From IMG/VR virus record IMGVR_UViG_3300014720_002669: DNA of 64,000 nucleotides. One strand, written 5' to 3'. The DNA is from a virus. The translations under genes and the position numbers were made by a program. Below are positions 29,419 to 38,106 of the stretch, in pieces. Numbering within the stretch: the first letter of the stretch is position 1; each line of letters begins with the position of its first letter. The notes beneath the pieces are model-generated. The model ran no database searches. It saw nothing but the letters and a program-made list of their open reading frames with translations, and had not been told where the DNA came from.

Positions 29419-30420
29419 TTAGCGCACAGGTACCAAATTGTTTCTGAATATTTCCCAGGCTCGACCCCATGACCAACGCTGACTGCCTTGCAGCACAAGA
29501 TGTCTGGGCAAAAACAAAGCATCAGTCACAGCCTGTTTTAGGTCTGTGTTCAAGCAGCCTGTGATGCCTTCATCAACTACATCCACGGGACCTTGCACAG
29601 GAAATGCTGCTACAGGTGTGCCACAGGCCATGGCCTCAATCATCACAATGCCAAAGGTCTCCCACTGACTGGGAAATACAAATACTTCAGCATTGGCATA
29701 GTATTCGGCCAATTCTTCTCCGGTCCGGTATCCAGTGAACAGTACGTCAGGATACTGTTGACGATAAGTTGGCAACATTGGGCCATCACCTACCATGATT
29801 TTCAAAAAGCCCGGAGTTGACATTTCAAAGAATGCTTCCAGATTTTTTTCTTTGCTGACTCTACTCACACACAGCAAGTACCTGCGATTTTTACACTCTA
29901 GTCTATAGCCAGGGTGGAATATGTCTCGATCCACACCTCTAGTCCAGGAAATGATATCACCATCAAATCCATGTGACCGGAGTTCTTGTACCATAGAATC
30001 TGTGGTGGTCAAGACCCGGCCTGAATGTTTGTGAAACCAACGCACTAGAGGCCAAGTAAGACTCTCAGGTATACCAAACAGTTTTCTAAGTCCTTCTGGA
30101 AACTTAGTATGATAAGCAGTGTTGTAGCGATAATGGTGTTTGTCAAGATATTGTCTAACACGCAAACCAATAGGACCCTCTGTGGCGATGTGGATATGAT
30201 CCGGACGGATCTCCTCAAGTATCGCGCCCACCTTCCGGGGAAAGGCAATCTTGACTTCGTTGTAGCCAGGGCAATCAACATAGCGGAACCGCCGGGGATC
30301 AAGATATACAACACGATAGTTGTCCCGAATCGCCATCGCCTCAATATTTTTGTAAGTTGTGACCACGCCATTGATCTGATCCGGTAAGTTGTCTGTGACT
30401 ATTAAGATTGTTTTTGACAT
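29419..30420 (-). CDS. agt: GT4 glycosyltransferase, Agt-like (glucosyl/glucuronosyl-diacylglycerol synthase)
   Basis: VTD...QINGVV, HIATEGPIG, YHTKFPE, VRWFH, WTRGVD..F.P, SRVSKEKN, ETFGIVMIEAMACG. Confidence 0.8.
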   Translation of the reverse strand: MSKTILIVTDNLPDQINGVVTTYKNIEAMAIRDNYRVVYLDPRRFRYVDCPGYNEVKIAFPRKVGAILEEIRPDHIHIATEGPIGLRVRQYLDKHHYRYNTAYHTKFPEGLRKLFGIPESLTWPLVRWFHKHSGRVLTTTDSMVQELRSHGFDGDIISWTRGVDRDIFHPGYRLECKNRRYLLCVSRVSKEKNLEAFFEMSTPGFLKIMVGDGPMLPTYRQQYPDVLFTGYRTGEELAEYYANAEVFVFPSQWETFGIVMIEAMACGTPVAAFPVQGPVDVVDEGITGCLNTDLKQAVTDALFLPRHLVLQGSQRWSWGRAWEIFRNNLVPVR

Positions 30421-30575
30421 TGCCCCGTTACCTTGAAACTTTTAAACTTCAAATCATATCGCATGGTCGCCAACACCTGTTCGCAACTGAGTTGATTTGG
30501 GAAAACTAATTCTATTCTTCCGGGTTGATCTTGCGGATTCGTTGTGTGTACTGCTATCAATATCATCAACCACAT
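30402..30575 (-). CDS. 57-aa small protein (not in ORF track)
   Basis: GGAG RBS; MWLMILIAVHTTNPQDQPGRIELVFPNQLSCEQV...GQCQKQS; overlaps both neighbours. Confidence 0.6.
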   Translation of the reverse strand: MWLMILIAVHTTNPQDQPGRIELVFPNQLSCEQVLATMRYDLKFKSFKVTGQCQKQS

Positions 30576-31326
30576 TGTCGTTCTCCCTGGTCCAGGTTAC
30601 AATTTCCCAAGATCCGTTGTGATGTTCTACTAGTGCTGTGCATGACTCAACCCAGTCACCGTCATTCATGTACATTATGCCATCTATTTCTTTAATTTCT
30701 GCATGATGTATGTGTCCACAGATAACTCCATCAAAGCCACGTTTCCGGCAGTAGTCAACAAGATTACGTTCAAAGTGAAAAATAAAGTCTACTGCTTTTT
30801 TGACCCGGTGTTTAAGGAACAGGCTAAGGCTAAAGTACCCAAAACCAAAACGATGACGAATCCAATTAATCCTAGTATTGAGTCCAAGAATGAAATCATA
30901 TGCTTTGTCTCCCAACATTGCCAACCATGGCGCCAGTCTAGTGATGCCATCAAATAAATCGCCATGAACCACAAGATAATGCCGATTGTCAACACCAATG
31001 TGCTCAACTTGATTTACAACTTCGATTAAGCCTAAGCCAATGCCATATTGCATAAACGGTCTCAAAAACTCGTCGTGATTACCAGCCACATATACAACCC
31101 TAGTACCGCGTTTGCTATGACCCAACACACGACGAATGACGTTGGTGTGACTTTGTTTCCATCGCCACTTGTTTTGTTTGATTTTCCAGGCATCAATTAT
31201 GTCTCCTACCAAGTAAAGAGTTTCGCAGGTGTTGTGTTTGAGGAAGTTGTTGAGTTTGTCAGCCTGGCAGTCTTTAGTGCCAAGGTGTACATCGCTGATA
31301 AAAATTGAGCGATAGGTTTTTTGCAT
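30454..31326 (-). CDS. plcP: PlcP-like phospholipase C (LpxH-family metallophosphoesterase)
   Basis: FISDVHLG, LVGDIID.W, GNHDE (His rather than the LpxH Arg), HGDLFD, GD.AYD, GVICGHIH, GDWVESCTA. Confidence 0.82.
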   Translation of the reverse strand: MQKTYRSIFISDVHLGTKDCQADKLNNFLKHNTCETLYLVGDIIDAWKIKQNKWRWKQSHTNVIRRVLGHSKRGTRVVYVAGNHDEFLRPFMQYGIGLGLIEVVNQVEHIGVDNRHYLVVHGDLFDGITRLAPWLAMLGDKAYDFILGLNTRINWIRHRFGFGYFSLSLFLKHRVKKAVDFIFHFERNLVDYCRKRGFDGVICGHIHHAEIKEIDGIMYMNDGDWVESCTALVEHHNGSWEIVTWTRENDNVVDDIDSSTHNESARSTRKNRISFPKSTQLRTGVGDHAI

Positions 31327-31330
31327 CTAG

Positions 31331-31365
31331 TATTTACAGCCAGATGTGTTACAATAGCATTACAG
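31331..31365 (-). promoter_or_regulatory. Pho box plus TAAATA element upstream of plcP
   Basis: Minus strand CTGTAAT-GCTA-TTGTAAC, 11 nt, TAAATA, 4 nt, ATG. Confidence 0.72.
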
Positions 31366-31674
31366 TTTGTCTTGCCTAGATGCCTGTAGTTCTTGACGTA
31401 AAATTTTGTAATCTTCCAGCGTGGCAATTGATGGCACAGTAGACTTCATGTATGCAGGGGGCACAGATTGCCATTCTGATTCACTCACACCGGCCACAAT
31501 CATGGCAGTGTATTCGTGTCCATCACTGGTATGCAGTTGCACTCGTTCAAATCCTTGTGGAGTCTTGGCTGCGTTCATACAGGCTTGTGCCAAGGCTCTG
31601 AGAGCTGGGGGGTCGGCTATGATGTGTAAATCTTGTCGGGGTTCACTGTGTGGGTATATGTGTAGTCTAGACAT
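31360..31674 (-). CDS. hypothetical protein
   Basis: Coupled to the dnaE-like stop codon. Confidence 0.7.
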   Translation of the reverse strand: MSRLHIYPHSEPRQDLHIIADPPALRALAQACMNAAKTPQGFERVQLHTSDGHEYTAMIVAGVSESEWQSVPPAYMKSTVPSIATLEDYKILRQELQASRQDKL

Positions 31675-33350
31675 TATGTTATGTGCTCGATTTCTTTCAA
31701 TTTCATGCGCTTGCTTTTGTACACTTTAACACATTCACTGCTGTTTGTATAGTCCAAACGGCCTTTGCCCCACAAGATTGGTTGATCAGCAAAGGACATG
31801 GCGTGTGGAACTATCACATCTAGATAACGGCCGTTGCCAGTGCCCAAGGTAGCAAAGGTTATGTAGTCTTTGGCTCCGCTTTTGAACACACGGTAGTTGG
31901 CCACCAGTCCCAGAAATTCCACTTCGCCGGGTCGTCTTATTTCAGTGCAAGCAGGAATAAAATTACTGCTACTCCAACGACCAGTTCGTGCCAATTCAGC
32001 ACATTCGCCGCCTTGCATGGGCGCAGGCACAGCTCCGGCCAATTTGGCTTCTTGATAATATACCCAACTGCTGTAACTGCCTTCGCAGTGTTTCAAACAG
32101 GCTCGCCAGAACGCCTCAGGATTGTGTGCCTTTTGATAGGCCAAGGCCCAGATCAATCTTCCTAGATTGGTAGCATGTGCTCGACACAGTCCAAAATGAC
32201 TGAGTTCGCGCAGTGACGCCAACACAGTATCACGCTTGGGGTGATCACCAATCAACTGCATAAACTCATAGATCTTTTCTTCATTGCGTTTGGCAAACGC
32301 TCTGCGCCACATGTCAGCGGTGTACATGTCACAGTCCAAGATGTCGGCAATCATGGTGATGGCATCATCTTCAAACACCACTGTGTCTTGTTGTATAGTG
32401 TCGGCACTCCAGTCTTGAAATGCACTGGCTTTACGTCGACCCTGTGTGGCCACTGGACGGATCAGTGCAGTGGCCAGGGTACAGTCGCTCCGGCTCTTGA
32501 CTTTGAGAGCTCTAAACAGTCTTTTCATGGCTGGACTTTCGCCCTGAGTCACACCCAACACATCACCACGACCCAGCAGGTCACTGGTTTTTTCATCATG
32601 CTCGGGATAGTCTGTGAGTGGGCGTTGATCAATCTCCCACAGTTGACTCAGTCCACGATTGGCCAGGATATCTATTTTGAAGTGTTCAAGATCTTCAGTT
32701 TCGTATTTGTCCAACAGGATTTGATTGTTGCCATTGATCAGGCTTGGAGGCACAGCACGATCAAAAATCAAAATGCCACCACAGTGTTTTGATATACAGC
32801 GTTTTTTGCCCATGAGCTTGGCTGTGACTCGTTTGGCCTCCTCTATTTCTTCTGGAGGCAACACTTGGCTGAATTCAAATCCACGTTTGAGTGTGCCTTT
32901 GGCTCCCAGCCGTTTGGCTGCTTCACGTTTGGCTGACTTTTCTTTGTACATCACATAGTTGCTGACTCTGGCACTTTGCCCCGGCCAGCGACGAAATATG
33001 CGATTCATCACAGTGGCCTGTTGCCAGTGTGGGAAATCCAGATCAATATCAGGAAGGTCGTCACGTTTGGGATTCATAAAACGTGCTATGGGGATGTTTT
33101 CTGCCACAGGATCTAGATCACTGATGCCCATGAGCCAGCACACCAGACTTGAGCCTGCTGATCCTCGGGTGATGTGTGGTATGTCTGTGGTGAGATCCAG
33201 TATTTCTCGCACACGCAAGAAGTGTCGAGAAAAGTTTTGATCTCTAATTAGTTCTAGTTCTTCTGCCAGTCTGTGTGCGTATTTGGGATCTTGTGGTAAT
33301 TCTCTTCTAAATTGTTTTACTAGTTGTTCAAGTTCTTTATATCTATCCAT
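31674..33350 (-). CDS. compact family-C DNA polymerase (DnaE-like, PHP domain absent)
   Basis: RGSAGSSLV, PDIDLDF, SKHCGG, KIDIL, C-terminal OB-like region. Confidence 0.88.
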   Translation of the reverse strand: MDRYKELEQLVKQFRRELPQDPKYAHRLAEELELIRDQNFSRHFLRVREILDLTTDIPHITRGSAGSSLVCWLMGISDLDPVAENIPIARFMNPKRDDLPDIDLDFPHWQQATVMNRIFRRWPGQSARVSNYVMYKEKSAKREAAKRLGAKGTLKRGFEFSQVLPPEEIEEAKRVTAKLMGKKRCISKHCGGILIFDRAVPPSLINGNNQILLDKYETEDLEHFKIDILANRGLSQLWEIDQRPLTDYPEHDEKTSDLLGRGDVLGVTQGESPAMKRLFRALKVKSRSDCTLATALIRPVATQGRRKASAFQDWSADTIQQDTVVFEDDAITMIADILDCDMYTADMWRRAFAKRNEEKIYEFMQLIGDHPKRDTVLASLRELSHFGLCRAHATNLGRLIWALAYQKAHNPEAFWRACLKHCEGSYSSWVYYQEAKLAGAVPAPMQGGECAELARTGRWSSSNFIPACTEIRRPGEVEFLGLVANYRVFKSGAKDYITFATLGTGNGRYLDVIVPHAMSFADQPILWGKGRLDYTNSSECVKVYKSKRMKLKEIEHIT

Positions 33351-33433
33351 TAAATGCTGCCTTGGTTGTTTTAGGAAAATATTTATGGTGTGATATTTTA
33401 TCATTCAAAGATTTTGGCACCGCTAAATATTCT

Positions 33434-34075
33434 GTGAAATCCACCATAGCCCTATTCATACATGATCCCAAGTGCTCTGTACAGAGTGGCAACGGAATTA
33501 TGCAGGCCCTGGGCAACAACTACAATTTTAAACTATTCAGCAAAAACGAAGTGGAAGATGTGTTCCTTGATGGGGTAGACATGGTTGCAGTACCAGGCGG
33601 ATTTGGTGATGCCGACAGTTATGATACTTTGTTTAAAAACAACTCAAAATCTGTGCGGCAATTCGTGCGGCAAGGCGGAAGATACTTGGGCATCTGTATG
33701 GGCGCATACTGGGCAGGCAAGCATTATCTCAACATCCTGGATTCAGTGGATGCTGTGCAATATATTCGTCGTCCAGGCACAGACACACGTAGACCGCATG
33801 CCAAATACATGCCAGTGACCTGGCGCGGCCAACCTAACAACATGTACTGGTACGATGGATGTGCCTTGGTGGGTGATCGCACCCGATTTGAAACTGTGGC
33901 AACTTACAGCAATGGTGATGCCATGGCCATCATACAGAACAGAATTGGCCTGATAGGATGTCATCCTGAAGCTGAACAGTTTTGGTACGACGATTACTCA
34001 TGGATGCGCCGGCACTGGTCTGGTGGGCATCATCGTTTACTTCAAGAGTTTGCGGACCAACTCATGCAGTCGTAA
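33434..34075 (+). CDS. BPL_N / class I glutamine-amidotransferase-like protein
   Basis: VPGG, YLGICMGAY, GCHPE; probable GTG start after TAAATA. Confidence 0.8.
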   Translation: MKSTIALFIHDPKCSVQSGNGIMQALGNNYNFKLFSKNEVEDVFLDGVDMVAVPGGFGDADSYDTLFKNNSKSVRQFVRQGGRYLGICMGAYWAGKHYLNILDSVDAVQYIRRPGTDTRRPHAKYMPVTWRGQPNNMYWYDGCALVGDRTRFETVATYSNGDAMAIIQNRIGLIGCHPEAEQFWYDDYSWMRRHWSGGHHRLLQEFADQLMQS

Positions 34076-34149
34076 AAAAAGGCCCTGTTAGGCCTTTAGT
34101 GCTGGTTACAAGTTCCAGCGCCGCTCTATCTTTGCGGCTGGTTTTTGTA

Positions 34150-35532
34150 TTAGAAGTTGATTTGTGTGCGAATGCTAACAACATCTTCCCTGCTGGTGGT
34201 GCCCATGTCAGTGGTATCCAATGGAGCAATTGCTGAGCCAAACTTGGTATAGGCATAGTTGGCCATGATTCTGGCATTGTTGTTGAGAATCCAGTTCACA
34301 CCATATGTCACTGTCTGAGCAGAATTGGCATTCTGTGTACGGTTGCCTGTCACAGCACCGTCAACACTGTTGCTGCCTGCTGCTGTGTATTCAGAAACAC
34401 GAACTCCCACTTGCCATGCACCTGTGCCATTGCCTACAACACCGCCATAGTCTTTCATAAACACTGATGATGGGGTGATACCGCCAAAGGTGCCACCTTT
34501 ATAACTTTTAGCAAAGTCTTCACCTGTGATATTGTACATGACTTCCACATACTTGGCCTGCACTCGTACGTCTTGTGTGGCCACACAAGCAGAGGTCACA
34601 CAACTGGCAGCACCTGTGACATAGTTATAGGTGTTGGCTGATGCTGAGTATTTGCTGTCAAAGTTTTCTGCTTGAATTTTGAATGGACCATGAGCCAAGG
34701 CCAATTCAATACCGTTCATGGTACGATTCACACTGGCAGCATTGTTGGCAGTGGCTCCATAGGCTGCTGTGTCAACTTTGTCACCGCCGATTTGAGCACG
34801 ATACACATTGCTCATGCCACGTGCTTCTGAGCGTAGTGCTACAATTGTACCACGTGTGGTTGTGCTGGGCGCATCAACTGTGTTGCCCGAAGTTGTTGGC
34901 ACCATCTGTGCCCGTCCACCAGTCTGTGCCACACCTACATGTAATACAGTGTTGGGATTGGATGCCAGTTGACCAAAATTCACAGCCACACGTGCCGCAT
35001 ACTGTGCGCCCAGAGTGTTGTCACTGGAACTTTCTGCGAAGTCACCTTGAAATGCTGATAATCCATAAACAAATCCTGCACTGGGTTCACCGTGCAGCAT
35101 CACACCCAGACGTTTGCCTGGAACCAATTGATTGCCATATGAACGTTCCATGAAGCCGATGTTGTTTGAACTGGTGAGTTCTTCCAGGCTAAACGGCTGC
35201 TTGAATCGACCTGTACGGAATTGTGCTGATTGATTGAAGCCATAGTTCACAAAGGCAGTGTCAATGAAGTTGGTGTTGCTGCCTACAGCATTGCCCACCA
35301 ACTCATAGTTGATCTGCTTGTTGATACTGCCATTGATACCAATTCTGGCTCTACGCAGTTCAAAGTTGTCGCCCACGCTGGCGCTGTCACGGTCTGTGGA
35401 TTTGGTCAGGTCCGAATCAAATGTTCGTGTGTCAAAATGCACACGGCCTGTGACCTTGGAATCCACCTGTGCCATTGCTGGCGCTGTCAGGGCCACAAAT
35501 GCAGCGGCCAAGATTAATTTAGTAAATTTCAT
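34150..35532 (-). CDS. phosphate-selective porin, OprO/OprP family
   Basis: Signal peptide; FELRRARIG arginine ladder; GRFKQPFSLEELTSSN; GVNW; C-terminal Phe. Confidence 0.9.
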   Translation of the reverse strand: MKFTKLILAAAFVALTAPAMAQVDSKVTGRVHFDTRTFDSDLTKSTDRDSASVGDNFELRRARIGINGSINKQINYELVGNAVGSNTNFIDTAFVNYGFNQSAQFRTGRFKQPFSLEELTSSNNIGFMERSYGNQLVPGKRLGVMLHGEPSAGFVYGLSAFQGDFAESSSDNTLGAQYAARVAVNFGQLASNPNTVLHVGVAQTGGRAQMVPTTSGNTVDAPSTTTRGTIVALRSEARGMSNVYRAQIGGDKVDTAAYGATANNAASVNRTMNGIELALAHGPFKIQAENFDSKYSASANTYNYVTGAASCVTSACVATQDVRVQAKYVEVMYNITGEDFAKSYKGGTFGGITPSSVFMKDYGGVVGNGTGAWQVGVRVSEYTAAGSNSVDGAVTGNRTQNANSAQTVTYGVNWILNNNARIMANYAYTKFGSAIAPLDTTDMGTTSREDVVSIRTQINF

Positions 35533-35596
35533 ATTTCTCCTTTAGATTTACTTTTGCGATATAACATAATATGTAGTGCAGTCAACACCACAGTGA

Positions 35597-36616
35597 TTAT
35601 TTCTTGATCTGGGACCAAACACGGTCACGAATCTGTTGAGTCAAGGTGTCTGGCAGTGGTACGTAATCCAAATCCAATGCTGCCTTTCGTCCATTTTTAA
35701 ATGCCCAATCAAAGAATTTCAATACCTCTGCACTTTGGCGAAGGTCGGTGGGATCCTTGTACATGAGAATAAAACTGGCAGTGGTCACTGGCCATACACT
35801 GTCGCCTTTTTGATCCACAATGCTCAGGGCCATGCCTGGTACTGAGAACCAATCTGCCCCAGCAGCCGCGGCAGCAAAGGTGGTGTCATCTGGTGATACC
35901 CAGCGACCATTGCGGTTCTGCATCTGCATGAACACCAATCGGTTTTTCTTTACATAGGCATATTCAACATAGCCAATGCTACCTCGGATTCGTGCCACGT
36001 TGGCTGCTACACCTTCATTGCCTTTACCGCCCACAGATGTTGCGGCAGGCCACTTCACAGCAGCACCACGACCCACACGTTCCAACCAAGCAGGACTCAC
36101 TGTGCTGAGATAATCGGTCCAGTTGAAGGTGGTGCCGGAACCATCAGCACGATGTACCACAGTGATGACTTGATCGGGCAAGGCTTTGCCGGGATTGAGA
36201 GCCATAAGCCGAGCATCGTTCCATTTGGAGATTTCGCCTAGAAAAATCTCTGCCAGCACTGGTCCAGTGACTCGGAGTTCACCTGGTCGGAATCCTGGTA
36301 AATTCACAGTAGGTACAGTACCGCCTATGACGGCAGGAAATTGCACCAGGCCTTCTTTTTCCAATTCTGCACCTGACATGGGTGCATCACTGGCGCCAAA
36401 TGTCACTGTCTTGGCCTTGATCTGTCGCAGGCCACCTGAACTGCCAATGCTTTGATAGTTTAACTGAGTGTCGTGTTTTTCACTGTAGATTTCGGCCCAC
36501 TTGCTGTAAATGGGAAAGGGGAAAGTTGCGCCTGCCCCAGTGATGATGTTTTGAGCATTTGCTGATGGACTCAACAAATACAGTGTTGCGGCCAACAAGG
36601 CCAAGATTTTTTTCAT
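35597..36616 (-). CDS. pstS: phosphate ABC transporter substrate-binding protein
   Basis: TGAGATFPFPIY, YQSIGSSGG, FGASD, HRADGSGTT, GKGNEGV, IGYVE. Confidence 0.97.
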   Translation of the reverse strand: MKKILALLAATLYLLSPSANAQNIITGAGATFPFPIYSKWAEIYSEKHDTQLNYQSIGSSGGLRQIKAKTVTFGASDAPMSGAELEKEGLVQFPAVIGGTVPTVNLPGFRPGELRVTGPVLAEIFLGEISKWNDARLMALNPGKALPDQVITVVHRADGSGTTFNWTDYLSTVSPAWLERVGRGAAVKWPAATSVGGKGNEGVAANVARIRGSIGYVEYAYVKKNRLVFMQMQNRNGRWVSPDDTTFAAAAAGADWFSVPGMALSIVDQKGDSVWPVTTASFILMYKDPTDLRQSAEVLKFFDWAFKNGRKAALDLDYVPLPDTLTQQIRDRVWSQIKK

Positions 36617-36653
36617 GTGTTTTCCTTTGTGAATATGTGCGATTGCACATGAA

Positions 36654-36688
36654 TATTTAAACACAAAGATGTTACAGTAATGTTACAG
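36654..36688 (-). promoter_or_regulatory. Pho box plus TAAATA element upstream of pstS
   Basis: Minus strand CTGTAAC-ATTA-CTGTAAC (11-bp period), 11 nt, TAAATA. Confidence 0.82.
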
Positions 36689-36835
36689 TGGCTGGGTTTT
36701 TTTGTTCTTTTTGTCTGGACCAAGAGCTTTGGCTTCTTCCAGCCGGCGCTGTGTGGCAGGGGTTGTTTGGGGAGGACGATACACGTGGTGTTTCTGGGAT
36801 TCGTGTCGTCGCGGTGCTCGTTTAAACCAACTCAT
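36683..36835 (-). CDS. 50-aa basic small protein (not in ORF track)
   Basis: AAGGAA RBS; MSWFKRAPRRHESQK... Confidence 0.5.
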   Translation of the reverse strand: MSWFKRAPRRHESQKHHVYRPPQTTPATQRRLEEAKALGPDKKNKKTQPL

Positions 36836-36894
36836 AGACAGTTCCTTTGCAGGTCTAAATACTTATTGTGTGTGTTTGAAATATAAACTCCAGT

Positions 36895-38106
36895 TTAATT
36901 TTGTTGTAGCAGTTGGCCAATTACAACACGATGTTGACCTGTGCAATGCTGTTGCATAATGACCATGGCTTGATCTAAATTGGTCTGGTATTCTTCTATC
37001 ACTTGATCAAACAGTCCGTTGAAAAATCGTTGTTTGTTGCGTTGGGCAATCTCATGCAATTTTGTGTACAGTGCTTGTTTAGCCGCAGCATCAAGTGCAG
37101 CAATTCTTTTCATCTCTTGGATGATGGCATCTAATCTGGCTGCACCATCAGCAATGGTGTCATAAGTTTCGTCAATCACATTTGCAAACGTTTCAAAACC
37201 GTAGTTTCTCAGGTATTGCAAACTGCCTGGTGTAGCCGCCAACAAGAAAGGTTTGCCACAAGCAATGGGCCTCAGTGTTTTTTCTGTGAGATGCCAACGA
37301 TCATCATCAAACAATGTTTCCAGCACAATTTCAATGCCACAAGCAGCGTAGTCTGCGCCACAGTAATCTGCACTGCTGCCTGAATCAGCAGTGTTGGGCG
37401 GATAAAGTTGTTCCAAATTGTGTAGATGAATTTGGAATTTTTTGTTGGCAAACACATGATCTACATAATGTGTGTCATTATCCACAGCGGCAAATGCAGT
37501 TTGAGTGTGTGATGTAAGATCATGCGTTGCCAGTTGTTGGGCAAAATACAGTCGATATTCTCGTGTGCCGCTCCAGGCTCGGTTGTATACCAAAAATGTT
37601 TTTTGTATTCGGGCAACATTATAAGTCAATGCAGGATCATGTTTGGCATATCGAAACCAATCCAACGCAATCATGGCATGACTCCAGATGTATACAGGTA
37701 CAAAATTTGCTTTTACAAAATATTTTAATTGACGACTGTGCAGTTCAGAGTGTACCAACACTGTTAGATCAAACTGATTGCTGCATACCTGTGGTGGTCG
37801 TAGATGCATGCCAGCCACATAATTCAAAACAGAATGCTCAAGCATAAAAAAACTGTCTGATATTTTGGAAAAAAATGACTTTGCATTATTGTATAGTTGC
37901 TCTTTGGTGTAAAATAAAAAATCCAATGGTTCTTGGTCATGAAAAACAACCAATGGATTCTTTTCAAGTTGATATTCTGGGTAGTTGGTCAACTGTGTTA
38001 GGTCTTCCAGTTTTCTTGAGCCATGTGGCAACCAACGATAAATTACTAGATCATGGTTGACACAGTCACACAAATAGTGATATAATCTGTCTAAAGGAAC
38101 ACTCAT
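36895..38106 (-). CDS. hypothetical protein, possibly glycosyltransferase-like
   Basis: HDQEPL, YNRAW, VLETLF..LTEKTLRPIACGKPF, GFETF. Confidence 0.6.
   Translation of the reverse strand: MSVPLDRLYHYLCDCVNHDLVIYRWLPHGSRKLEDLTQLTNYPEYQLEKNPLVVFHDQEPLDFLFYTKEQLYNNAKSFFSKISDSFFMLEHSVLNYVAGMHLRPPQVCSNQFDLTVLVHSELHSRQLKYFVKANFVPVYIWSHAMIALDWFRYAKHDPALTYNVARIQKTFLVYNRAWSGTREYRLYFAQQLATHDLTSHTQTAFAAVDNDTHYVDHVFANKKFQIHLHNLEQLYPPNTADSGSSADYCGADYAACGIEIVLETLFDDDRWHLTEKTLRPIACGKPFLLAATPGSLQYLRNYGFETFANVIDETYDTIADGAARLDAIIQEMKRIAALDAAAKQALYTKLHEIAQRNKQRFFNGLFDQVIEEYQTNLDQAMVIMQQHCTGQHRVVIGQLLQQN

What the first reader, a model, noticed from the sequence alone, without database searches (positions are those of the whole stretch)
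31331..36688. Two Pho boxes with identical geometry, each 11 nt upstream of a TAAATA late-promoter-like motif
Seen on the minus strand: CTGTAAC-ATTA-CTGTAAC (36688-36671) before pstS and CTGTAAT-GCTA-TTGTAAC (31365-31348) before plcP. Both are followed after exactly 11 nt by TAAATA, the motif found before many genes in this window. Established: Pho boxes are 7-bp direct repeats with an 11-bp period, and T4-type late promoters are TATAAATA. Inference: the two operons form one regulon, possibly with hybrid promoters integrating host PhoB~P and a phage late sigma factor.
Basis: partly seen in the sequence, partly recalled or inferred. Interest (0 to 1): 0.75.

Follow-up and report, generated by a model that had tools for sequence, protein, structure and literature searches.

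The report
Pho boxes on phage late promoters
A giant T4-like lake phage has placed binding sites for its host's phosphate-starvation regulator (PhoB) at a fixed distance in front of its own late-type promoter core, ahead of a captured phosphate-uptake operon and a membrane-lipid-remodelling operon, so host nutrient status probably gates these phage genes; no binding or expression has been measured.

Summary
Observation confirmed. Two 18-bp Pho boxes (7-bp direct repeats, 11-bp period) each lie exactly 11 nt upstream of TAAATA, before pstS-porin and before plcP-glycosyltransferase. Shuffled sequence gives 0.00 such composites. They are the only Pho boxes in the 103.6-kb record.

The design is conserved. 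TAAATA sits at exactly 11 nt in 70 of 80 box-bearing related phage loci. A complete 360-kb relative has only two boxes, before the same two genes, 173 kb apart.

Host-clade (Burkholderiales) pstS promoters differ: box + 10 nt + TAnnnT in 69 of 70, never TAAATA. The extra base matches the register shift between a sigma-70 -10 hexamer (-12..-7) and the T4 late core (-11..-6). PhoB therefore ends at -23 in both.

TAAATA is the phage's own -35-less promoter core. It is strongly enriched and strand-specific upstream of genes. It precedes late-gene homologues and not early ones. Relatives encode a gp55-like sigma.

The hybrid-promoter reading is the best-supported one, but it is unproven. Which polymerase form answers to PhoB is unknown.

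This scan has already reported the same design on at least 28 other genomes. I found no paper describing it. plcP appears leaderless.

The parts
36671..36688 (-). Pho box 1 (CTGTAAC-ATTA-CTGTAAC), predicted PhoB dimer site, about -40..-23
   Evidence: Read. The pattern is unique in the record. Homologous boxes occur in 46 of 65 unique related pstS upstream regions.
36654..36659 (-). TAAATA late-type promoter core, 11 nt after box 1
   Evidence: TAAATA sits at exactly 11 nt in 39 of 46 box-bearing pstS loci.
36635..36650 (-). Palindrome ATGTGC-AATC-GCACAT. The GUGC/GCAC stem starts at the predicted +1 (G36648), giving a 5'-terminal hairpin on the pstS leader.
   Evidence: Folds at -5.3 kcal/mol against about -1.5 for shuffles. 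Kept in L003, L004 and L064 with changed loops. The start site is inferred, not mapped.
35597..36616 (-). pstS, periplasmic phosphate-binding protein (339 aa, with signal peptide)
   Evidence: NCBIfam PstS equivalog NF008171 at 408 bits (cut-off 339). Pfam PBP_like_2. 70-77% identical to Comamonadaceae PstS.
34150..35532 (-). Phosphate-selective porin O/P homologue, downstream of pstS on the same strand (probable operon)
   Evidence: Pfam Porin_O_P, E 1.8e-38. A hairpin at 35592-35572 lies between the two genes.
31348..31365 (-). Pho box 2 (CTGTAAT-GCTA-TTGTAAC). The stop codon of the upstream ORF 31360-31674 lies inside its first half-site.
   Evidence: Boxes occur in 34 of 72 unique related plcP upstream regions.
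31331..31336 (-). TAAATA late-type promoter core, 11 nt after box 2 and 4 nt before the plcP ATG (leaderless arrangement)
   Evidence: TAAATA at 11 nt in 31 of 34 loci. The ATG lies 4-8 nt after TAAATA in 26 of 30.
30454..31326 (-). PlcP-like metallophosphoesterase (290 aa)
   Evidence: Pfam Metallophos, E 1e-10. The LpxH models hit only the N-terminus and stay far below cut-off. Homologues at 47-54% identity in 39 of 61 genomes sampled from the family of Limnohabitans sp. WS1.
29419..30420 (-). GT4 glycosyltransferase (Agt-like) directly downstream of plcP
   Evidence: Pfam Glyco_trans_1_4 and Glycos_transf_1. Weak hits to diacylglycerol glucosyltransferase models. The gene order matches the bacterial plcP-agt operon (PMC4796936).

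Best explanation
These are two composite promoters of a T4-like jumbo phage of freshwater Burkholderiales. In each, a host-type PhoB binding site (Pho box) occupies the place of a -35 element, about -40 to -23. The -10 position holds not a host sigma-70 hexamer but the phage's own late-type core TAAATA (-11 to -6), which a gp55-like phage sigma reads. In a phosphate-starved host, phosphorylated PhoB binds the box and helps the phage-modified polymerase start transcription. One start lies about 6 nt after TAAATA and gives a pstS-porin mRNA with a 5' hairpin. The other lies at or next to the A of the plcP start codon and gives a leaderless plcP-glycosyltransferase mRNA. The phage thereby raises phosphate uptake and releases phosphorus from host membrane lipids only when the host signals phosphate shortage. 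Shown by sequence: the anatomy, its conservation, its contrast with host promoters, the class of the TAAATA element, and a gp55-like sigma in relatives. Inferred: PhoB binding, phosphate dependence, the start sites, and above all that the gp55-type polymerase, not the sigma-70 form, is the one that PhoB assists.
For: (1) Anatomy and chance. (2) Conservation: TAAATA lies exactly 11 nt after the box in 39 of 46 pstS and 31 of 34 plcP unique related loci, although the spacer sequences differ. (3) In the complete relative G001 (359,563 b) the only two Pho boxes in the genome are 11 nt before TAAATA, before pstS and plcP, 173 kb apart. (4) Host contrast: 70 of 80 Burkholderiales pstS upstream regions have a phased half-site pair. 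Of these, 69 are followed by TAnnnT at exactly 10 nt and none by TAAATA at 11. (5) Register: the T4 late box spans -13..-6 (PMC2988020), so TAAATA spans -11..-6. An 11-nt spacer then puts the box's 3' end at -23, the same as a 10-nt spacer before a -12..-7 hexamer. (6) TAAATA is the clade's own promoter core. In G001 it occurs 102 times in the 60 nt upstream of genes, against 13.4 expected and 17 antisense. Only 2 of 107 and 0 of 28 sites have a -35-like hexamer. TTGACA-type promoters in G001 pair with TATAAT (36 times), not TAAATA. TAAATA precedes 5 of 8 T4-late homologues (gp10, 17, 18, 20, 25) and 0 of 7 early ones (one-sided hypergeometric p = 0.019, my arithmetic). (7) The distance from TAAATA to the start codon is bimodal: 4-7 nt (31 genes) and 16-21 nt (32 genes). 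This fits a start about 6 nt after TAAATA. (8) A gp55-like sigma occurs in G001, G002 and G006 (phrog_12791 E 5e-76; PDB 7d7c gp55 E 3.7e-7), together with a T4-type capsid protein and portal. (10) Precedent: PhoB is required at promoters of an alternative (ECF) sigma in Pseudomonas aeruginosa (PMC4971064).
Against: No experiment bears on it: no PhoB binding, no phosphate response, no mapped 5' end. PhoB's known activation route is through sigma-70 region 4 on the beta flap (established knowledge). gp55 has no region 4, and in T4 gp33 occupies the flap while the gp45 clamp sits just upstream (PMC7892883). PhoB at -40..-23 could therefore clash with that machinery instead of helping it. Seven related pstS loci keep a host-type TAnnnT at 10 nt and carry TAAATA as a separate element 5 nt further on, which suggests that PhoB works with sigma-70 there. 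The window's own record is about 30% complete and does not contain the sigma gene. G001 shares only 62 of 146 ORFs with it, at about 51% identity. No gp33 homologue was found, and only a marginal gp45 hit. The phage half-sites are mostly TGTAAY, whereas the host pstS boxes are TGTCAY.
Confidence: 0.5

Rival explanations
1. Dual-use overlapping promoters. The same TAAATA serves two polymerases at different times. Early in a phosphate-starved cell, host sigma-70 polymerase recruited by PhoB uses it as a weak -10. Late, the gp55-type polymerase uses it without PhoB. The box and the late core are merged for economy, not because PhoB talks to the phage sigma.
For: Seven related pstS loci carry both signals unmerged: box + 10 nt + TAnnnT (host geometry), then TAAATA 5 nt downstream. 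This shows that both inputs are wanted. PhoB's known partner is sigma-70 region 4. Activator-dependent promoters tolerate poor -10 hexamers (established knowledge).
Against: Read by sigma-70, TAAATA lacks the near-invariant T at -7 and would sit 1 nt off the host spacing, which is 10 nt in 69 of 70 host promoters. In the phage, TTGACA-type promoters pair with TATAAT and not with TAAATA. If PhoB did not act on the polymerase bound at TAAATA, the exact 11-nt spacing need not be kept in 70 of 80 loci.
Confidence: 0.2
2. Ordinary Pho-regulon promoters. Sigma-70 polymerase plus PhoB is the only user, and TAAATA is a degenerate host-type -10 that merely resembles the phage late motif.
For: The box position (replacing -35, about 10 nt before a TA-rich hexamer) is the canonical PhoB architecture. 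One earlier scan note (e1-5390166) reached this reading on another genome.
Against: The hexamer is the exact string TAAATA in 70 of 80 loci instead of a TAnnnT family. None of the 70 host promoters has it. The plcP arrangement (ATG 4-8 nt after TAAATA, no ribosome-binding site) is the same as at about 30 box-less phage genes, including portal and terminase. Those genes must be started from TAAATA without any -35 or activator.
Confidence: 0.15
3. PhoB acts negatively or as a timing gate. Bound at -40..-23, it blocks the sliding clamp and co-activator from reaching the late polymerase, so the box modulates a constitutive late promoter downward or delays it.
For: In the T4 activation complex, gp33 and gp45 occupy the DNA immediately upstream of the polymerase (PMC7892883), which is where the box lies.
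Against: Repressing phosphate uptake and phosphorus-sparing genes precisely under phosphate starvation makes little biological sense. Host and cyanophage pstS are induced by PhoB (PMC10976474).
Confidence: 0.06
4. The direct repeats bind some other protein (phage-encoded or another host OmpR-family regulator), or the match is a chance resemblance to a Pho box.
For: The phage half-sites (TGTAAY) differ at one position from the host pstS half-sites (TGTCAY). No binding data exist.
Against: The 7-bp repeat, 11-bp phasing, orientation and position are those of the host pstS boxes. The boxes occur only before phosphate-related genes. No OmpR/PhoB-type DNA-binding domain was found in the phage genomes. 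Chance expectation is 0.00.
Confidence: 0.05

Closest known systems
Proteobacterial PhoB-dependent (Pho regulon) promoters, e.g. E. coli pstS/phoA and the Burkholderiales pstS promoters retrieved here
   Same: Two 7-bp direct repeats with an 11-bp period replace the -35 element. The box's 3' end lies at about -23. They stand upstream of phosphate-acquisition genes.
   Different: Host promoters have TAnnnT at exactly 10 nt (69 of 70). The phage has TAAATA at exactly 11 nt. The phage half-sites are mostly TGTAAY, the host's TGTCAY. The -10-position element belongs to the phage's own -35-less promoter class.
T4-type late promoters (TATAAATA read by gp55, with gp33 and the gp45 clamp; PMC2988020, PMC7892883)
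   Same: An A/T core ending in TAAATA at the -10 position. No -35 element in the class as a whole. It precedes structural and packaging genes. Relatives encode a gp55-like sigma.
   Different: T4 late promoters have no sequence-specific upstream activator site. Here a host regulator's site is fixed 11 nt upstream. Only the 6-bp core is conserved. The sigma carries an insertion of about 145 residues relative to T4 gp55. No gp33 was detected.
Host PhoBR control of cyanophage genes (P-SSM2 pstS, as cited in PMC10976474; S-PM2d genes, PMC10976474)
   Same: A phage carries pstS or other genes behind host Pho boxes, so that host phosphate status controls phage gene expression.
   Different: Those use cyanobacterial-type boxes (PyTTAAPyPyT/A repeats) at variable positions. 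No fixed coupling to a late-type core is described. That paper finds box prediction unreliable without binding assays.
PhoB-dependent promoters of the ECF sigma VreI in Pseudomonas aeruginosa (PMC4971064)
   Same: PhoB is needed for an alternative sigma factor to engage promoters that carry a Pho box.
   Different: That is a cellular ECF sigma with its own -35 and -10 elements and a region 4. It is not a phage gp55-type factor.
Bacterial plcP-agt lipid-remodelling operon (PMC4796936)
   Same: A metallophosphoesterase-type phospholipase C gene is followed by a glycosyltransferase gene, with a Pho box upstream.
   Different: Here it is carried by a phage, behind a phage-type promoter core, and probably on a leaderless mRNA. 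Enzyme activities are untested. I found no paper on a phage-borne plcP.

Membership tests
PhoB-dependent (Pho regulon) promoter | Two 7-bp direct repeats (CTGTCAT-like) separated by 4 bp, giving an 11-bp period | tested here: met
   CTGTAAC-ATTA-CTGTAAC and CTGTAAT-GCTA-TTGTAAC. The same phasing occurs in 70 of 80 host pstS promoters.
PhoB-dependent (Pho regulon) promoter | The box replaces the -35 element and lies 10 bp upstream of a sigma-70 -10 hexamer (TAnnnT) | tested here: not met
   The spacing is 11 nt and the hexamer is TAAATA (A at the last position). Host promoters have 10 nt + TAnnnT in 69 of 70. The box position relative to the inferred start (-23) is nevertheless the same.
PhoB-dependent (Pho regulon) promoter | Located before phosphate-acquisition or phosphorus-sparing genes | tested here: met
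   pstS + porin O/P, and PlcP-like + GT4. The only boxes in G000 and G001 lie before these genes.
PhoB-dependent (Pho regulon) promoter | Bound by PhoB~P and induced by phosphate limitation | not testable with these tools
   No binding or expression data. The two RNA-labelled runs gave only fragmentary contigs.
T4-type late promoter | TATAAATA box at -13..-6 | tested here: inconclusive
   The sites read TTTAAATA and TGTAAATA (7 of 8 each). Only TAAATA is conserved across the clade. T4 relatives also vary at -13/-12 (PMC2988020).
T4-type late promoter | No conserved -35 element in the promoter class | tested here: met
   No information content upstream of 107 (G001) and 28 (G000) gene-proximal TAAATA sites. 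TTGACA-like hexamers occur at 2 of 107 and 0 of 28.
T4-type late promoter | The phage encodes a gp55-family sigma | tested here: inconclusive
   Present in relatives G001, G002 and G006. Not present in the 30%-complete record that holds the window, nor in its closest fragmentary relatives G003-G005.
T4-type late promoter | Precedes late (virion and packaging) genes and not early genes | tested here: met
   In G001, 5 of 8 late homologues against 0 of 7 early homologues. In G000, it lies before a tail-fibre-like gene.
T4-type late promoter | gp33 co-activator and gp45 clamp present | tested here: inconclusive
   No gp33 hit with the T4 protein. One marginal gp45-family hit in G002, E 0.005. Both proteins are small and divergent, so these are weak tests.
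PlcP-Agt lipid-remodelling operon | Metallophosphoesterase-type PlcP followed by a glycolipid glycosyltransferase, with a Pho box upstream | tested here: met
   Pfam Metallophos + GT4 on adjacent genes. Box 2 lies upstream. The arrangement matches 'type 2' in PMC4796936. The enzymatic function is not testable here.

The most novel reading that the evidence does not exclude
Host PhoB~P directly activates a gp55-type phage holoenzyme, which lacks sigma region 4. It would do so by standing where the sliding-clamp/co-activator assembly normally acts. A site-specific host regulator would thus substitute for, or add to, replication-coupled activation, making a subset of 'late-type' promoters fire on a nutrient signal. 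The one-base longer spacer would be an adaptation that keeps PhoB at -23 relative to the late-promoter register.
Probability: 0.35. Interest if true: 0.8.

Novelty: new variant of a known kind. Interest (0 to 1): 0.6.

Why it matters
Phage use of host phosphate signalling is known from marine cyanophages, but only as host-type boxes on host-type promoters. Here a host regulator's site is grafted at single-base precision onto the phage's own promoter class. This holds across hundreds of uncultured freshwater jumbo phages and covers a phospholipid-cleaving enzyme and a glycolipid synthase as well as phosphate uptake. If PhoB really assists a gp55-type polymerase, that would be a new activation route for a sigma factor without region 4. 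It would also be the first site-specific activator of T4-type late promoters. Even under the more conservative readings, it gives a clean and testable case of how a virus wires an environmental signal into its gene programme. It also suggests that phages remodel host membranes to free phosphorus in phosphorus-poor lakes.

Tried and rejected
- blastn of 30000-37000 against isolated phages found no match. A tblastn that I hoped would name relatives hit only DnaK homologues.
- RNA evidence: no listed holder is on record as RNA. Two lake-water runs labelled RNA-Seq (possibly DNA) held 5-7% of the words. Laid on the stretch, they gave only short contigs 90-99% alike from relatives, with no start-site information.
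- An AlphaFold model of the gp55-like sigma, from 16 sequences about 80% alike, reached mean pLDDT 40.8. It was unusable, so I ran no fold search.
- T4 gp33 found nothing in four phage records. The gp45 family gave one marginal hit. The AsiA family found nothing, and its control was also empty. The Phage_sheath_1 family found nothing. All are weak negatives.
- Host homologues of the PlcP-like protein have N-terminal extensions, so their immediate upstream DNA is coding. It could not serve as a second host-promoter comparison.
- The generic sigma-70 promoter scan found nothing at the two sites and no excess in the region: 22 found against 16.5 expected.
- A 5'-terminal hairpin is not a general feature of pstS leaders: mean MFE -1.48 against -1.08 for shuffles. 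It is confined to this clade and a few others.
- Rfam has no family for the two-hairpin element seen before plcP in other loci.
- I considered and rejected an extended -10 (TGn) reading for sigma-70. Neither site has TG one base before the hexamer.


Full report
**Observation.** On the minus strand, CTGTAAC-ATTA-CTGTAAC (36688-36671) is followed by 11 nt and TAAATA (36659-36654). The pstS start codon is at 36616. CTGTAAT-GCTA-TTGTAAC (31365-31348) is followed by 11 nt and TAAATA (31336-31331), which lies 4 nt before the ATG at 31326. The composite pattern, even with one mismatch allowed, matches only these two places in the window; 100 dinucleotide-preserving shuffles gave 0.00. The box alone occurs nowhere else in the 103,583-base virus record that holds the window.

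**Genes.**
- The first unit is pstS (NCBIfam equivalog at 408 bits, cut-off 339) followed by a phosphate-selective porin O/P homologue.
- The second unit is a 290-aa metallophosphoesterase whose N-terminus resembles LpxH but scores far below that family's cut-off. A GT4 glycosyltransferase follows it. This is the gene order of the bacterial plcP-agt lipid-remodelling operon, which also carries Pho boxes (PMC4796936).
- Between the two units lie a DNA polymerase III alpha fragment, a small ORF and an opposite-strand gene. They are therefore separate transcription units.

**What the replicon is.** The record is an IMG/VR virus contig estimated at 30% complete.
- Relatives reached through PstS and PlcP include near-complete genomes of 359,563 b (G001) and 341,990 b (G002).
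- These encode a T4-type major capsid protein (Pfam Gp23, E 1e-99) and portal (E 1e-105).
- They also encode a 301-aa protein that matches PHROG 'sigma factor for late transcription' (E 5e-76). As a profile it matches T4 gp55 in PDB 7d7c (E 3.7e-7, sigma region-2 part). It sits next to a gp47/SbcD homologue, as in T4.
- G001 shares 62 of 146 ORFs with this record at about 51% identity, so inference from it is at family level.
- The window's own record, and its closest but fragmentary relatives, do not contain the sigma gene in the parts assembled.

**Conservation.** I collected 80 viral loci for each gene, out of about 345 confirmed relatives each.
- Among unique upstream regions that carry an 11-bp-phased half-site pair, TAAATA lies exactly 11 nt after the box in 39 of 46 pstS loci and 31 of 34 plcP loci. 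The spacer sequences differ freely.
- In G001 the whole 360-kb genome has two Pho boxes (0.3 expected). Both lie 11 nt before TAAATA, before pstS and plcP, which are 173 kb apart there.
- The module therefore travels with the genes, not with a genomic neighbourhood.

**Host comparison.** The closest cellular PstS proteins (70-77% identity) are from Comamonadaceae and other Burkholderiales: Acidovorax, Limnohabitans, Hydrogenophaga and Polaromonas.
- In 70 of 80 of their pstS upstream regions there is a phased half-site pair (TTGTCAY type). In 69 of those 70 it is followed at exactly 10 nt by TAnnnT (TAAAGT, TAGAGT, TACAGT). None has TAAATA at 11 nt.
- The phage design thus differs from the host design in two linked ways: one more spacer base, and a hexamer ending in A instead of T.
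- The T4 late box occupies -13..-6 (PMC2988020 speaks of 'A(-13) in place of T'), so TAAATA occupies -11..-6. An 11-nt spacer then puts the box's 3' end at -23. That is exactly where a 10-nt spacer puts it before a sigma-70 hexamer at -12..-7.
- The extra base is what one expects if PhoB must keep its place relative to the polymerase while the -10 element is read in the late-promoter register. This is inference, but it explains both differences at once.

**TAAATA as the phage's own promoter core.**
- In G001, TAAATA is the most enriched non-ribosome-site hexamer in the 60 nt upstream of genes: 102 observed, 13.4 expected, 17 on the antisense strand.
- Gene-proximal sites carry no information upstream of the hexamer. 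A TTGACA-like -35 occurs at 2 of 107 sites in G001 and 0 of 28 in this record.
- Sigma-70-type promoters do exist in G001, and there TTGACA pairs with TATAAT (36 times), not with TAAATA.
- TAAATA lies within 70 nt upstream of 5 of 8 homologues of T4 late genes (gp10, terminase gp17, sheath gp18, portal gp20, gp25). It lies upstream of 0 of 7 homologues of early genes (gp44, gp46, gp47, gp55, frd, uvsW, gp1). The one-sided hypergeometric p is 0.019 by my arithmetic.
- In this record it precedes a tail-fibre-like gene.

**Start site and leaderless messages.** The distance from TAAATA to the start codon is bimodal in G001. One class, at 4-7 nt (31 genes), has no room for a ribosome-binding site. 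The other, at 16-21 nt (32 genes), has one. Control hexamers show no such peaks.
- The mode of 5 nt places the A of ATG at +1 in the T4 register.
- plcP belongs to the first class: its ATG lies 4-8 nt after TAAATA in 26 of 30 box-bearing loci. So do portal and terminase.
- This argues that TAAATA at plcP is used as at those box-less genes, that is, without a -35 element.
- In pstS leaders the sixth base after TAAATA is a purine in 25 of 33 loci, usually preceded by T. In this clade a GUGC/GCAC hairpin starts exactly there.

**Who reads the box.** No OmpR/PhoB-type DNA-binding domain was found in four phage records, two of them near complete, while the control genomes rang.

**Mechanism and its rivals.** The best-supported reading is a composite promoter: host PhoB at -40..-23, and the phage late-type core at -11..-6.
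- The open question is which polymerase form PhoB assists. PhoB is known to work through sigma-70 region 4, which gp55 lacks. In T4, gp33 sits on the flap and the clamp sits just upstream (PMC7892883).
- A precedent for PhoB acting with an alternative sigma exists in Pseudomonas aeruginosa (sigma VreI; PMC4971064).
- Seven related pstS loci keep host geometry (box + 10 nt + TAnnnT) with a separate TAAATA 5 nt further on. This shows that both inputs are selected for, and it keeps a dual-use reading alive.
- My weights: hybrid 0.5, dual use 0.2, sigma-70 only 0.15, negative gate 0.06, other regulator or chance 0.05.

**Novelty.** Host PhoBR control of cyanophage genes is published (PMC10976474). 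In four full-text searches I found no paper on a Pho box fixed to a T4-type late core, and none on a phage-borne plcP. This scan has already reported the same design on other genomes: 36 findings in at least 28 genomes. Most of them agree with the reading given here; one favours an ordinary host-type -10, which my host comparison does not support. I class the finding as a new variant of a known kind.

Noticed in passing
G001 genome-wide (L249-L266); window 3428, 19697, 27198, 31336; further G000 sites beyond the window's end (window-offset 73672, 98268, in L247 and L248): The distance from TAAATA to the start codon is bimodal. One class sits at 4-7 nt with no ribosome-binding site (31 genes in G001, 8 in this record). 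It includes portal, terminase and plcP. This suggests that leaderless late mRNAs are common in this jumbo-phage clade.
   Followed up: partly
window 36635-36650 (-): The palindrome ATGTGC-AATC-GCACAT begins at the predicted +1 of the pstS mRNA. Close relatives keep it with changed loop bases. It is either a 5'-terminal stabilising hairpin or an operator for another regulator.
   Followed up: partly
L109, L121, L134, L160, L148, L010, L079 (between pstS stop and plcP start, or just before plcP): In relatives without a Pho box before plcP, a conserved element of about 40 nt with two hairpins (consensus near CGGTCAC..GGTGAC / CTGGA..CCAG) sits directly upstream of plcP. It matches no Rfam family and is not present in this record.
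   Followed up: partly
L008, L009, L011, L013, L016, L017, L057: A subgroup of phage pstS promoters has a tandem design: Pho box + 10 nt + TAnnnT (host geometry), then TAAATA 5 nt downstream. It is a natural 'unmerged' version of the promoter.
   Followed up: partly
L015, L045, L050, L055, L062, L078 and others (pstS); L095, L111, L113, L127, L131 (plcP): Another phage lineage carries a different phased repeat (TTGTGAC-AGTT-TTGTTTC type) followed by a TAGATAA-like element instead of TAAATA. It may be a Pho-type box for another host or another promoter class.
   Followed up: no
window 31360-31365 (-): The stop codon of the 104-aa ORF 31360-31674 lies inside the first half-site of Pho box 2, so the regulatory site overlaps coding sequence.
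   Followed up: no
Phage boxes against host boxes: Phage half-sites are mostly TGTAAY, whereas Burkholderiales pstS half-sites are almost always TGTCAY. This could reflect AT bias, tuned affinity, or a true host outside the genomes retrieved.
   Followed up: no
L244:934-1839 (G002) and homologues P0001-P0120: The gp55-like sigma is about 300 aa and about 80% conserved across the 120 best-scoring homologues listed (at least 8000 environmental proteins hit). It has an insertion of about 145 residues between the N-terminal segment and the region-2-like part relative to T4 gp55. No Pfam domain matches it.
   Followed up: partly
G001, minus strand, about 12,600 bases from the 3' end of the + strand (one search reports a reverse-complement index): A box-like repeat TTGTGAC-GGTT-TTGTGAT lies only 4 nt before a TAAATA that is 4 nt before an ATG. 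The spacing differs from that of the Pho modules.
   Followed up: no
L010 1509-2090; L079 1-157: Related phage contigs carry tmRNA genes close to pstS. One is a permuted type; the other is a fragment that hits the betaproteobacterial tmRNA model at 37.4 bits, below its 84-bit gathering score. The latter is only a weak hint of a betaproteobacterial host.
   Followed up: no
window 29421 and 29057 (-): The two small genes downstream of the glycosyltransferase each have their own TAAATA 17-18 nt before a ribosome-binding-site-led start. One is a cytochrome c; the other, a 98-aa ORF, has no family match. Cytochrome c is unusual phage cargo next to the phosphate module.
   Followed up: no
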